Positions 2,162-50,316 of a stretch of DNA of 64,000 bases are shown here, one piece after another; within the stretch, counting starts at the first letter, position 1; every line of letters begins with the position of its first letter. The notes under the pieces are model-generated. The model ran no database searches and was not told where the DNA came from. It was given only the letters and a program-made list of their open reading frames with translations. The stretch lies in assembly GCF_006345805.1 (NCBI RefSeq), contig NC_043000.1:114514001-114578000 (forward strand), given 5' to 3'. The stretch is from Octopus sinensis. Lineage: Eukaryota. A program made the translations under genes and the position numbers.

Positions 2162-2359
2162 ATCCAAACATGAAAACACAAAGAGAAAACACAACAATGA
2201 GAGGACGTGGAACAAGTATAGTGTTATTGGACGCTCAGGAAAGGAAAGGAAGAAGGAGGTTTTAATGTTTCGAGCGGAGCTCTTCGTCAGAAACATAGGA
2301 AAATGAAACATCCAAGGAAGGGAAGACGGAGGAAAAAATCGCCAACGATACACACGCGG

Positions 2360-23943: not shown

Positions 23944-24043
23944 NNNNNNNNNNNNNNNNNNNNNNNNNNNNNNNNNNNNNNNNNNNNNNNNNNNNNNNNN
24001 NNNNNNNNNNNNNNNNNNNNNNNNNNNNNNNNNNNNNNNNNNN
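23944..24043. other. Assembly gap (100 N)
   Basis: Run of N. Confidence 1.
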
Positions 24044-41511: not shown

Positions 41512-41726
41512 CTATCTCTGTTTTTCTAACTGAAGTAGCTGTATATCTCCTCTACTGCAAGACACCTATTTCTCTCCCTCTGTTCATTATTTAGTACAAA
41601 GCCGCCCCAGTATCATTCATCCCTCAGTTGAAGGGTCTTGTCTTGCTAGTTACTTGGGGACCTAACTAAAGGTTGGTGCTACGTAAAACGTACCCGCTAC
41701 ACTCTGTAAAGTAGTTGAGGAGAATA

Positions 41727-43030
41727 TCTTATAAGGGATATTAATTTTTATGTGTTTGGGGTGGCATGAGTTGAATAATAGGTATTGTTTAGAATCTGTG
41801 GGTTTATAGATGTCTGTTTCGATGTGGTCATTGACTATTTTAATTAAGATGTCAAGTAAAGGGAGTTGTTTACTGCTGTACTCCATGGTGAATTGTATGT
41901 TGCTATTAATATTGTTAAGCATTATTTTGAAATCGAGGAGTTTGTCCATGCTGTCTTTCCAAAGTATAAAGCAATCGTCCAAATACCTCTTCCAGTACTC
42001 CTTTGAATAGCAATGAAATGAGGTGCCATATTTCTGTAGTGATGATTGATATATTTTACGCTCTAGGTAACCCGTTACAAAGTTAGCAATCACTGGAGCA
42101 GCTCGGGCTCCCATTGCAATTCCACATTTTTGTCGATAGTATAATGTATCGAACATGAAATAGTTGTTCAGTAGGATGAATTTGAGTGCAGCGATTATGA
42201 ATCTGTGGTTGATGCGTCCTGGGATCTCTTCTGGGTATTTTCCTAGCCAGAAGGTGATCGCTTCTATACCATAATCGTGTGAGATATTGGTGTACAAATT
42301 CACCACATCGAATGACACTAACAGGGATCCTTCATTTATTGTCTTCAGGAGGTGGTTGAGTATGTTTAAGTCATCCCTGATAAAGCTTTTCATATATTTT
42401 AGAAACGGTTTGAGTAAAATGTCGAGGAAGTTGCTCAAACGGTGGGTTTCACAAGTAGGGCCAGCAATGATGGTTCTCAGTTTGAGGTCACTAGGGGGGG
42501 GGGGAGACATTAATGCGTAGGCTTGGAGAATCTTTGCAGGCTTTACAAATATGCAGATTTTTGTGTATTTTAGGTATTCCGCAGAATAGAGTAAGTCTGT
42601 ATTTAGAATTGAATAAATAGTCAATTTCATTTTTAGTGAGGCCCTTTCCATGTATTTGAAGTAAGGAGGATAAGTTTTTAAGTGACTTCTGGGGGTTGTA
42701 TTGTACTATCTTCTCATAGTAAATAATATTTTCCAACATGGAAAGTATTAAATTTTTGTAGTACTCTGTGTCCATCACCACTACGGCACTTCCTTTGTCG
42801 GCTTCTTTAATGGTGAGGTTTATATAATTTTTTTAACTCGATTAGATCTTTCCATTTATTTACATTAAGGCTGGATTTAATTCGATGTTTTTGTAGGGTA
42901 TTAAAAGGAAAACTGGTAATGTGTTCACAAGTGCTTTATTTCTAACTTTTGTAGGATAGTATTCACTTTTGTTTTTTACTATTGAGTCATCTTCACTGGT
43001 GTAGTTGTGAAGGCGTAATTTTCGTCAGAA
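41727..43030 (-). mobile_element. Penelope-like element reverse transcriptase (frameshifted)
   Basis: IKEADKGSAVV, GIPKIHK, LRTIIAG, SFDVVNLYTNI, GIAMG, RYLDD, FTME, LPLLDI and YKPTDSKQYL..SCHP. Confidence 0.95.
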
Positions 43031-46537: not shown

Positions 46538-47958
46538 CTTTCAGGACAATATATGCCTTATCAACCTCATACAGTACATATTCAAATCCTGGTATGTTAA
46601 TAATCCTTGACGATTTTTGTGGTCATTGCTTTTTTGTATATAGTATATATATATATATAATATATATATATATTATATATATAGATATATATATATAGTA
46701 TATATATACCTATATACTATATATATATACACGCACATATATATACATATATATACATATATACATATATAATATACACACAGATATATATATATATATC
46801 TGTGTGTTATATATATATATATGTATATATGTATATATATGTATATATGTATATATATCTGTGTGTATATATATATACACACGCACACACACTCACATAT
46901 ATATATATATATGCAATTTATATATGTATATATATATATATATGAAAAAATACATACATATATATATGTATTATACGCACACATATATATATGTATGCGT
47001 ATGAAAGTGTATGTGCGTGCATGTATATGTATGTATATCAAAAATGTATGAACATATATTTACATACATACACACAAATACACATATGTAGGCATTTACA
47101 AAGGGTATGTGTGTGTATGCATGTGCGCAAGTTAGTGTATCTAAGCGTGTATGTGTGTGTGTGTGTGTGTGTGTTGTATTGTCATAAAGTACTGTGAGAA
47201 ATGTAGAACATTATATGCCTTATCAATATCGTCCAGTTCATATTTAAATTATGATACGTTACACTGGTTCGTGCGCTTTTGTTAGTGTTTTTTCACACAT
47301 CCACAAATGGGGCAGGCACACATACCACACCACACACACACACACACACACACACACACCACACACACACACACACTCACTCACTCACTCACACACAAAA
47401 AAAAAGAGACAGGCAGAAATATAGAGTAAGAGGTAGAGAAGAATCGTACCCAGTATGCGACTCGTACTTTATTTATCGATCCTCAAAAGCAAAGTTGATA
47501 TCAGTAGAAATCACAGTACAGGTAACTTGGACAATTACTGAAAAGATATCCATCGAACGTTCCAATGTTTCGACTAAACAATTCGTCAAATATTGTTCTT
47601 TTATATGTTCCAGGCGGTTTTCTGCTACTCGTTAAATAATATTTACGCATTTGATTCCCAATTCAAAAAATGTTTTCGGTAGATTAACATCTAATTTCCA
47701 TTGGTATCCATTATTCGTCTAATAACACTCACTTGCCCAGTAAATAAATTCAGAATAATGTAACGAAAATAATGTATTTGGAAGCATCAGTTCCTATGAT
47801 TAACTATAATTCAAAGGTTACCGAGATGTACTTGCATAGCGAGTGACCTGATCCGAGATCGTGTGCTGGAACGAAAACAATTGCAGCGTGGAAGGTGTTT
47901 ATAAGCCATTTAAGAAACACACAAAAACCGTTAGATTCACTTCAACATTTAAATTTAA

Positions 47959-48009
47959 TTTGTCAAAATGTTTTCGTCGCTTTGAGACCGCGACCTGTTC
48001 ACTGACAAA
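47959..48009 (-). ncRNA. Type I hammerhead motif, G3-C8 covariant
   Basis: uuuguca GUGAACA g GUCGC ggucucaaa GCGAC GAAA acau UU ugacaaa; 7-bp stem I, 5-bp stem II. Confidence 0.75.
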
Positions 48010-48302
48010 ACTCCGTGCTGCATTGTAATTCTAAAACATTGTAATTGTTTTAGAATTTATGTAGAAATCAAGTTTGACGTTGAGTAAAAGTCCTTAGTTT
48101 ATTTTAAACATACAAGTAAGAAGATATCCTTACTTAGCATAAAAGTGAACTGAAATGCTCACCACGTATATACCGGAAAAGTACATACTGAAAAACTTGC
48201 TGTTGGTTCGAACTCATTTGATTGCGTAACATATTACAAGCGCTGCAGTACTATTCCGTTGCTAGAAACAGAAGTGGGCAAAAGTAGGTATATAAACTGA
48301 AT

Positions 48303-48890
48303 AAGGCGGCGAGCTGGCAGAATCATTAGCGCGCTGGACGAAATGCTTAGAGGTATTTCGTCTGCCGCTACGTTCTGAGTTCAAATTCCGCCGAGGTCGA
48401 CTTTGCCTTTCATCCTTTCGGGGTCGATTAAATAGTACCAGTTACGCACTGGGGTCGATAAAATCGACTTAATCCGTTTGTCTGTCCTTGTTTGTCCTCT
48501 CTGCGTTTAGCCCCTTGTGGGTAGTAAAGAAATAGGTATTTCGTCTGCCGTTACGTTCTGAGTTCAAATTCCGCCGAGGTCGTCTTTGCCTTTCATCCTT
48601 TCGGGGTCGATTAAATAGTACCAGTTACGCACTGGGGTCGATAAAATCGACTTAATCCGTTTGTCTGTCCTTGTTTGTCCTCTCTGCGTTTAGCCCCTTG
48701 TGGGTAGTAAAGAAATAGGTATTTCGTCTGCCGTTACGTTCTGAGTTCAAATTCCGCCGAGGTCGTCTTTGCCTTTCATTCTTTTGGGGTCGATTAAATA
48801 AGTACCAGCTACGGACTGGGGTCGATATAATCGACTTAATCCGTTTGTCTGTCCTTATTTGTCCTCTTGCGGGTAGTAAAGAAATCGGTA
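48303..48890 (+). mobile_element. SINE family B trimer (183-bp period)
   Basis: ggtatttcgtctgccg at 48352, 48535 and 48718. Confidence 0.9.
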
Positions 48891-49955: not shown

Positions 49956-50316
49956 AAGTTTATGAAAGAATGGAGTTGAACGACTTGTTAACAAATTTCC
50001 TTTATTTTCGACATATGTTTCGAAGGCTGCATATTCCTAATTCGAAGGAATAACGAGTACATTATGCAGATTTCTCATAAGGAAAGGCAAGGAACTTATG
50101 CCGACATCAATTATCGCCATGGGTTCCTTGAGAGCAGTCAGCTAAAGGTTTTTTGTGCATTTTGATGTCGACATAAGTTCCTTGCCTTTCCTGATGAGAA
50201 ATCTGCATAATGTACTCCTTATTCCTTCGGAATTAGGAATATGCAGCCTTCGAAACATATGTCGAAAATAAAGAAATTTGTTAACAAGTCGTTCAACTCC
50301 ATTCTTTCATAAACTT
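49956..50316. repeat. Long inverted repeat P3 (arms ~49956-50110 and 50162-50316)
   Basis: Reverse-complementary arms with a ~51-nt spacer. Confidence 0.9.
50187..50267 (+). ncRNA. Type I hammerhead motif with extended stem II, core intact
   Basis: uuuc CUGAUGA gaa..cugcaua..auuccu..aggaauaugcag..uuc GAAA cauaug UC gaaa; predicted cut after C50263. Confidence 0.8.

What the first reader, a model, noticed from the sequence alone, without database searches (positions are those of the whole stretch)
47959..48009. Hammerhead with rare G3-C8 core covariation
Seen (minus strand): UUUGUCA-GUGAACA-g-GUCGC(9 nt)GCGAC-GAAA-acau-UU-UGACAAA, with a perfect 7-bp stem I and 5-bp stem II. Established: C3 and G8 form a tertiary Watson-Crick pair that tolerates compensatory swaps. 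Inference: a double compensatory change implies selection on catalysis, and standard CUGANGA searches would miss this family.
Basis: partly seen in the sequence, partly recalled or inferred. Interest (0 to 1): 0.75.

Follow-up and report, generated by a model that had tools for sequence, protein, structure and literature searches.

The report
Swapped-core hammerhead in Penelope-like retroelement
This is one of about 4,000 copies of a jumping-gene end that carries a hammerhead-shaped RNA, likely self-cutting, in which two paired core letters have traded places, while two sister families in the same genome use the standard pair or a third version; cutting itself is untested.

Summary
The motif lies in a solo 206-bp pLTR (47818-48023, minus) of a Penelope-like element (PLE) in an octopus-like genome. 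G3-C8 is the family consensus: 3,923 of 4,345 pattern matches, none C3-G8. The family's stem III segment is the palindrome AAUAUU; this copy has AACAUU. Full pLTR-ORF-pLTR elements exist. Two sister PLE families (about 55% protein identity) carry the homologous hammerhead with C3-G8 and with U3-A8, and stems I-III change compensatorily. A protein tree makes C3-G8 the likely ancestral state. An older, about 70% identical subfamily keeps G3-C8 (11 of 17). So the tertiary 3-8 pair is under structural selection. Catalysis is only inferred: most copies were reverse-transcribed from RNA not cut at this site, and the excess of junctions at the cut is small and confounded. Natural U3-A8 and engineered G3-C8 are published; I found no natural G3-C8 in print (10 searches; Lunse 2017 and Przybilski 2007 not readable). 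This scan already reported the swap in this genome, in other animal genomes and in phages. New variant of a known kind.

The parts
47818..48023 (-). Solo pLTR copy of PLE family A, with the 3' tail; no inverted partner or ORF in the window
   Evidence: 93-94% identical to both pLTRs of the full element L155 and 97.5% to L024.
47959..48009 (-). Minimal type I hammerhead motif with G3-C8 core
48003..48009 (-). Stem I, 5' strand (pairs with 47959-47965)
47996..48002 (-). Core G3 U4 G5 A6 A7 C8 A9 (G3 = 48002, C8 = 47997)
   Evidence: G3/C8 in 3,923 of 4,345 matches
47995..47995 (-). Extra unpaired nucleotide (G) between A9 and G10.1, typical of PLE minimal hammerheads
   Evidence: PMC4209133
47976..47994 (-). 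Stem II (5 bp) with a 9-nt loop; the loop varies between subfamilies, the stem does not
47973..47975 (-). Core G12 A13 A14
47967..47972 (-). Stem III segment A15.1..U16.1, predicted to pair between two RNAs; palindrome broken in this copy by C at 47970
47965..47966 (-). Predicted cleavage site, 3' of U17 (47966), triplet UUU
   Evidence: Inferred from hammerhead numbering; not tested
47959..47965 (-). Stem I, 3' strand
47955..48023 (-). Short upstream reading frame (22 codons) over the hammerhead; frameshifted in other subfamilies, so not conserved as protein
47818..47909 (-). First codons of the PLE ORF (ATG at 47909-47907); in full elements this frame runs on into RT and GIY-YIG
   Evidence: L155
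47818..47878 (-). Optional 3' tail of about 58 nt between the two preferred 3' ends of the family
   Evidence: Two clusters of 3' ends among 197 copies

Best explanation
This is a solo terminal repeat (pLTR) of a Penelope-like retroelement family whose minimal type I hammerhead has a fixed G3-C8 core pair instead of C3-G8, and which likely self-cleaves slowly after U17, and only as a dimer or with help from the element's protein. Shown: family membership, pLTR position in full RT/GIY-YIG elements, fixation of G3-C8, and compensatory change of the 3-8 pair and of all three stems across sister families. Inferred from known hammerhead chemistry: G3-C8 replaces the C3-G8 tertiary pair that places the 2'-OH of nucleotide 8 as general acid, with G12 as general base (recalled). 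Two pLTR RNAs pair their AAUAUU palindromes to build stem III. U17 rather than C17 avoids an inhibitory G3-C17 Watson-Crick pair, at the price of a G3-U17 wobble that would slow folding. Inferred from copy ends: transcription starts about 15 nt upstream of stem I, and reverse transcription starts at two sites further 3' in the pLTR, mostly on uncut RNA; this yields thousands of solo or inverted pLTR copies such as this one. Cleavage would therefore trim or regulate only a minority of transcripts (tandem read-through RNAs). This window's copy is probably impaired, because its palindrome is broken.
For: 4,345 genome matches, control 0; G3/C8 in 3,923 of them, C3/G8 in 0. L155 is pLTR-ORF-pLTR in direct orientation; L149 has a 1,042-aa open frame. 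The protein alignment matches a Neptune-like PLE across RT and GIY-YIG (probability 97%, E 2.6e-11). Sister family B: C3-G8 in 94 of the first 100 of 3,594 matches. Sister family C: U3-A8 in 88 of the first 100 of 5,872 matches (both counted by eye). Across 11 hand-picked rows the 3-8 pair is formed in 11 of 11 (C-G 4, G-C 3, U-A 3, U-G 1); stem II is 100% paired with 4 of 5 pairs changed on both sides; covariation score 0.595 against 0.239 shuffled and at most 0.179 slid. Tree (A,(B,C)) with supports 99/97 and 100/99; outgroups L200, L201 and L211 have C3-G8, L199 has U3-A8. An older subfamily, 62-73% identical over long matches, keeps G3-C8 in 11 of 17 matches while N7, the extra nucleotide and loop II differ. 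Of 15 subfamily-diagnostic sites in 197 copies, 0 are in the core, 1 is in a stem (U-A to U-G) and 4 are in loop II. Literature: the double mutant partly rescues cleavage in a PLE hammerhead, which needs protein (PMC11167929, passages); in a pairwise scan the G:C swap is the only rescue seen in the U-turn (PMC9901934, passages); G3-C8 is more active with G17 than with C17, data not shown there (PMC3884650, passages).
Against: No cleavage was measured. 96 of 197 sampled copies begin at the fixed 5' boundary upstream of the hammerhead (the sample is enriched for such copies by my own search patterns), so their templates were uncut. 5' junctions at the cut site number 56, against 22, 14, 12 and 34 at control positions. 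Of these 56, 19 have the letters of the inverted partner's stem I strand, so microhomology may explain them; 3 of 15 inspected were internal mutations, not junctions. The palindrome duplex is marginal (-0.2 kcal/mol), and the monomer is predicted to form G3-U17 with probability 0.67. The rows are related and were picked with a structural descriptor, so the shuffle counts are not probabilities; there are only three or four independent changes of the 3-8 pair. The deficit of diagnostic sites in the structure (1 observed, about 3 expected) is weak. In the Anolis PLE, ribozyme cleavage was not needed for insertion in vitro (PMC11167929). Family B has largely replaced A9 by C (79 of the first 100), which hints at relaxed catalytic constraint in this clade.
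Confidence: 0.72

Rival explanations
1. The hammerhead fold is kept as a structural signal (protein binding, RNA dimerisation or RT positioning) and no longer cleaves at a useful rate; the 3-8 pair is kept for the fold only.
For: Templates were mostly uncut. The clade tolerates G3-C8, U3-A8, C9 and, in L200, U15.1-A16.1. Cleavage was dispensable for insertion in vitro in PAc, and PMC4209133 itself allows non-cleavage roles.
Against: The 3-8 pair is reported to form in the active conformation and not in ground-state minimal structures (PMC3884650). U4, G5, A6, G12, A13, A14, A15.1 and U16.1 are invariant in 11 of 11 rows. H17 is U or C in all 11 rows, never G.
Confidence: 0.18
2. G3 and C8 were fixed by drift in one master element during relaxed selection, and the pairing is coincidental; the copy number only reflects amplification.
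For: Thousands of near-identical copies are not independent. G3-C8 arose once on the tree. Single-change intermediates are inactive in vitro, so the lineage may have crossed a dead state.
Against: Three sister families each have a different Watson-Crick pair at 3-8, and the stems are compensated. G3-C8 persists in a subfamily about 30% diverged.
Confidence: 0.07
3. G3 and C8 are dictated by an overlapping function (upstream reading frame, internal promoter or splice signal), not by RNA structure.
For: A 22-codon frame covers the motif, and the element's 5' boundary, with a branch-point-like and polypyrimidine-AG signal, lies just upstream.
Against: The short frame is shifted in the 8-nt-loop subfamily. 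An overlap would not produce paired changes in three stems and in the 3-8 pair.
Confidence: 0.03

Closest known systems
Minimal type I hammerheads in pLTRs of metazoan Penelope-like elements (Cervera and de la Pena 2014, PMC4209133; main text parts 1-2 of 4 and supplement parts 1-2 of 3 read)
   Same: pLTR location, extra nucleotide between 9 and 10.1, G10.1-C11.1, palindromic 15.2-16.2 segment, no closed stem III, thousands of solo copies; natural U3-A8 variants were reported in Schistosoma.
   Different: G3-C8: none of the 56 representatives in their Fig. S3 has it. The extra nucleotide is G here and H in their consensus. Stem I is longer (7 bp).
PAc (Poseidon, Anolis carolinensis) hammerhead and the engineered C3G/G8C double mutant (PMC11167929, passages read)
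   Same: PLE pLTR hammerhead near the ORF start; two RT start sites defining a tail; uncut RNA is the main template; the double swap is partly active.
   Different: In PAc the swap is a laboratory mutant; here it is the wild type of a family of about 4,000 copies. The tail is about 58 nt, against the usual 30-40.
Natural core variants surveyed by Perreault et al. 2011 (PMC3088659, passages read)
   Same: Natural covariation of the 3-8 pair (U3-A8).
   Different: The passages I saw name U3-A8 only; figures and supplements were not seen.
Neptune/Nematis-type C-terminal EN+ PLEs (Craig et al. 2021, PMC8557442; passages and supplement parts 1-2 of 59, plus one supplement search)
   Same: Single ORF with RT, a CX2-5CxxC linker, C-terminal GIY-YIG with CCHH-type residues, pLTRs, inverted 5'-truncated copies, tail, (TA)n flanks.
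   Different: The distance from RT motif A to B' is 131-132 aa, against 63 aa in the window's Neptune-like RT: an insertion at the IFD position, which that paper says canonical C-terminal EN+ PLEs lack. The clade was not assigned.

Membership tests
Hammerhead ribozyme (type I, minimal PLE form) | Three-way junction: stems I and II around the core | tested here: met
   7-bp stem I and 5-bp stem II; compensatory changes across families
Hammerhead ribozyme (type I, minimal PLE form) | Literal core consensus C3 U4 G5 A6 N7 G8 A9 | tested here: not met
   G3 and C8 in 3,923 of 4,345; C3-G8 in 0. U4, G5, A6 and A9 are present.
Hammerhead ribozyme (type I, minimal PLE form) | Watson-Crick tertiary pair between positions 3 and 8 | tested here: met
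   Paired in 11 of 11 rows, with C-G, G-C, U-A and U-G; pairing is inferred from covariation, not from a structure
Hammerhead ribozyme (type I, minimal PLE form) | G12 A13 A14, A15.1-U16.1 and H17 | tested here: met
   invariant in 11 of 11 rows, H17 = U in family A
Hammerhead ribozyme (type I, minimal PLE form) | Extra nucleotide between 9 and 10.1, and G10.1-C11.1 | tested here: met
Hammerhead ribozyme (type I, minimal PLE form) | Palindromic stem III segment for dimer formation | tested here: met
   Met for the family (AAUAUU); this copy's AACAUU forms no predicted duplex
Hammerhead ribozyme (type I, minimal PLE form) | Site-specific self-cleavage after H17 | not testable with these tools
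   Only an indirect test on junction positions, which was inconclusive
Rfam hammerhead families | Match to a covariance model | tested here: not met
   0 matches at gathering level over the window and at E<=10 over 47500-48500
Penelope-like element (EN+) | Direct pLTRs flanking a single long ORF | tested here: met
   L155: pLTR 7214-7009, ORF (frameshifted in this copy), pLTR 1481-1277; L156, L158 and L159 have a 5' pLTR followed by the ORF
Penelope-like element (EN+) | RT plus C-terminal GIY-YIG endonuclease | tested here: met
   hhalign to Neptune-like L115, probability 97%. Pfam is weak: RVT_1 in 2 of 12 and GIY-YIG in 2 of 12 members, none for L117 or L149. Motifs are visible in the alignments.
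Penelope-like element (EN+) | Inverted 5'-truncated partner copies and an optional 3' tail | tested here: met
Penelope-like element (EN+) | Spliceosomal intron in the pLTR/5' UTR | tested here: inconclusive
   A branch-point-like and polypyrimidine-AG signal precedes the boundary (441 exact matches), but no shared exon 1 was found upstream of the boundary
Neptune clade specifically | Phylogenetic placement, and no IFD | tested here: inconclusive
   The linker zinc finger is present, but there is an insertion of about 70 aa at the IFD position; no tree with named reference elements was built

The most novel reading that the evidence does not exclude
One PLE clade has walked the hammerhead's catalytic 3-8 pair through three Watson-Crick states (C-G, G-C, U-A) in co-existing, high-copy families, with position 17 chosen so as not to pair with position 3. 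The G3-C8 form is an active, deliberately slowed ribozyme whose rate sets how much capped, uncut RNA is left for copying. The clade is also an unnamed C-terminal-endonuclease PLE lineage with a telomerase-like insertion in the fingers.
Probability: 0.25. Interest if true: 0.62.

Novelty: new variant of a known kind. Interest (0 to 1): 0.42.

Why it matters
It is natural, phylogenetically resolved support for the C3-G8 tertiary pair that was first shown by crystallography and by engineered swaps, and it supplies the G-C state that I did not find reported from nature. Hammerhead censuses built on CUGANGA miss at least two families of 4,000-6,000 copies in this one genome, and a third through C9. 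The three sister families give a ready-made matched set for asking an open question: whether PLE hammerheads are kept for cleavage, and how fast they need to be.

Tried and rejected
Rfam: no match. A link to the Neptune-like RT at window 41662-42832 was rejected: no pLTR homology near it, and a different RT type. Same-strand pairs of copies 4-5 kb apart (L031, L032) were not full elements but separate or duplicated insertions. Sequencing runs: no RNA holder listed. The four runs laid were contigs and cannot show ends, strand or expression; in them the family is present under four organism labels, C8 holds 95-100% of the depth, and no variant row at G3 is among those shown (11 rows hidden). Cleavage footprint from 5' junctions: inconclusive; one control (110 matches) was discarded because a subfamily A-to-G variant inflates it. 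A3-U8 family: no clear excess (185 matches against 146 control). Further G3-C8 families with an A/C/U extra nucleotide: no overall excess (211 against 237), though an old relative of family A showed up in that list. Viral contigs: no relative. Metagenomes: 19 loci, of which 4 gave a readable 3' hammerhead (L199, L200, L201, L211), none G3-C8, and L204 is doubtful. Tree: L155, L113 and L115 were left out for short or missing alignments; the root is the midpoint. PDB search gave only a weak RT hit. Literature: 10 searches; G3-C8 appeared only as an engineered variant. Lunse et al. 2017, Przybilski and Hammann 2007, Martick and Scott 2006 and Hammann et al. 2012 were not held, so they were not seen; Lunse 2017 surveys many PLE-linked variants (recalled) and could contain G3-C8. 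Figures and supplements of Perreault 2011 were not seen. The bioRxiv retrozyme preprint was read in part 1 of 5 only, and its supplements are closed.

Full report
Observation. A descriptor allowing any Watson-Crick 3-8 pair and at least 12 stem pairs hits once in the window and 0 times in 200 shuffles. Rfam has no match.

It is a repeat. The genome is 2.72 Gb. A protein labelled Octopus vulgaris by its source falls inside sister family B in my tree, so I call the host octopus-like. A pattern with positions 3, 7 and 8 left open gives 4,345 matches, control 0; 3,923 are G3/C8 and 0 are C3/G8. The window holds one copy, 48023-47818. Among 197 distinct sampled copies, 143 of the 162 that cover both sites are G3/C8, and the rest are single changes (the sample is biased by my search patterns). 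The stem III segment is the palindrome AAUAUU in the family. This copy has AACAUU, which forms no predicted duplex and favours pairing of G3-U4-G5 with that segment. So the family, not this copy, is the relevant unit.

It is a Penelope-like pLTR. Many copies have a 5'-truncated inverted partner, and 3' ends fall in two clusters about 58 nt apart. Longer copies carry the end of a GIY-YIG frame about 1 kb upstream on the same strand. L117 has a 722-aa frame and L149 a 1,042-aa frame. L155 is pLTR-ORF-pLTR, with pLTRs 93-94% identical to the window copy, and its ORF starts at the ATG that lies at window 47909. Pfam support is weak, but the alignment of 12 relatives matches a Neptune-like PLE protein across RT and endonuclease at 97% probability. 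Inverted partners, tails and pLTR hammerheads are described PLE features (PMC8557442, passages; PMC4209133, parts 1-2 of 4).

The swap is compensatory. A protein search found two sister families at about 55% identity. Family B has C3-G8 (94 of the first 100 of 3,594 matches) and family C has U3-A8 (88 of the first 100 of 5,872); I counted both by eye. Stem II reads GUCGC/GCGAC, GUCAC/GUGAC and GUUGC/GCAAC in A, B and C, and stems I and III also change in pairs. On 11 hand-picked rows, 3 of them from metagenome relatives, the 3-8 pair holds in 11 of 11 and the covariation score is 0.595, against 0.239 shuffled and at most 0.179 slid. These rows are related and were chosen by structure, so this is descriptive. 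The tree gives (A,(B,C)) with strong support; outgroup loci L200, L201 and L211 have C3-G8 and L199 has U3-A8. By parsimony C3-G8 is ancestral, G3-C8 arose once on the A branch and U3-A8 at least twice; the root is only a midpoint. An old subfamily of A, 62-73% identical over its longer matches, keeps G3-C8 in 11 of 17 matches while N7, the extra nucleotide and loop II have changed. Within A, 15 subfamily-diagnostic sites include none in the core, one pairing-neutral change in stem I and four in loop II; about 3 would be expected in the 42 structured positions, so this is weak support. C8 holds 95-100% of the depth in contig sets under four organism labels.

Mechanism. Published mutants show that the G-C swap partly rescues cleavage, including in a PLE hammerhead that needs its protein (PMC11167929, passages; PMC8495972, passage; PMC9901934, passages). 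PLE minimal hammerheads cleave weakly and as dimers. I therefore infer slow cleavage after U17 that depends on a dimer or on protein. G3 goes with U17, and U3 goes with U17 in family C and L199, whereas C3 occurs with U17, C17 or A17. This fits avoidance of an inhibitory N3-N17 pair (PMC3884650, passages), but rests on very few independent cases. The model still predicts a G3-U17 wobble in the monomer with probability 0.67.

Results against active cleavage. Copies start preferentially at a fixed point 15 nt upstream of stem I (96 of 197). Where the base before that point is not the templated C (553 matches), it is G in 75 of the first 100 listed (counted by eye), with no shared sequence further upstream in the 12 such junctions seen. 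I read this as a G copied from an RNA cap, so these templates were capped and uncut; a very short first exon is an alternative, since a branch-point-like and polypyrimidine-AG signal precedes the point. Junctions exactly at the predicted cut number 56, against 12-34 at four control positions. Of the 56, 19 can be explained by microhomology with the inverted partner's stem I, and 3 of 15 inspected were not junctions. This test is inconclusive. Family B has mostly C9 in place of A9, which suggests that the clade tolerates slow cores.

Comparison and novelty. It works like the PLE minimal type I hammerheads and meets their structural features, but not the literal C3/G8 consensus; cleavage is untested. 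None of the 56 representatives in PMC4209133 Fig. S3 and none of the motifs in PMC8557442 File S2 has G3-C8. Natural U3-A8 is published. Ten literature searches found G3-C8 only as an engineered variant, but four relevant papers were not held (see Tried and rejected). Earlier notes of this scan report the same swap in this genome and in other animal genomes and phages; I had reached the PLE reading before opening them, and they are not independent evidence.

Verdict. A real hammerhead variant of a known kind, kept by selection on structure; probably a slow ribozyme; this copy is probably impaired. Interest is moderate.

Noticed in passing
L117:2014-4179, L149:3452-6577, L161:2710-5841, L199: The RT of this PLE lineage has 131-132 aa between motifs A and B', against 63 aa in a Neptune-like RT: an insertion at the IFD position in a C-terminal-endonuclease PLE, which PMC8557442 says canonical ones lack. 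275 database relatives at E<=1e-10. Not checked against Repbase or Dfam.
   Followed up: partly
family A 5' boundary (window 48023-48026); Sharp 5' end of copies with a strong excess of non-templated G, probably copied from the cap, directly after a branch-point-like and polypyrimidine-AG signal; start site or splice acceptor not resolved.
   Followed up: partly
L160-L166, L180, L185, L188, L197, L198 (family B): Hammerhead with C3-G8 but C9 instead of A9 in 79 of the first 100 matches; an A9 subset (19 of 100) also exists. L199 combines U3-A8 with C9.
   Followed up: partly
L200:4965-5030: Hammerhead-like motif behind a related PLE ORF with C3-G8 but U15.1-A16.1 in place of the near-universal A15.1-U16.1, and a palindromic segment (read by eye).
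   Followed up: no
window 41662-42832 (-): Broken Neptune-like PLE reverse transcriptase (Pfam RVT_1, E 9.9e-7), unrelated to the hammerhead family.
   Followed up: partly
window about 2254-2294 (-): Canonical C3-G8 minimal hammerhead in another repeat; a matching motif with an intact palindrome is in L177.
   Followed up: no
window about 50187-50266 (+): Canonical-core hammerhead-like motif with a long interrupted stem II and a palindromic stem III segment.
   Followed up: no
window 48351-48871: 2.8 tandem copies of a 183-bp unit of an abundant short repeat directly upstream of the pLTR copy; it resembles an octopus SINE (recalled, not tested).
   Followed up: no
L113:5121-6599: Intact-looking 493-aa RT/GIY-YIG frame of another PLE type, possibly the Hydra clade (recalled motifs, not tested).
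   Followed up: no
L166:7396 (-), L181:2342 (-), L171, L174: Further canonical hammerheads of other repeat families in this genome, one with a closed stem III.
   Followed up: no
window 23944-24043: Assembly gap of 100 N.
   Followed up: no
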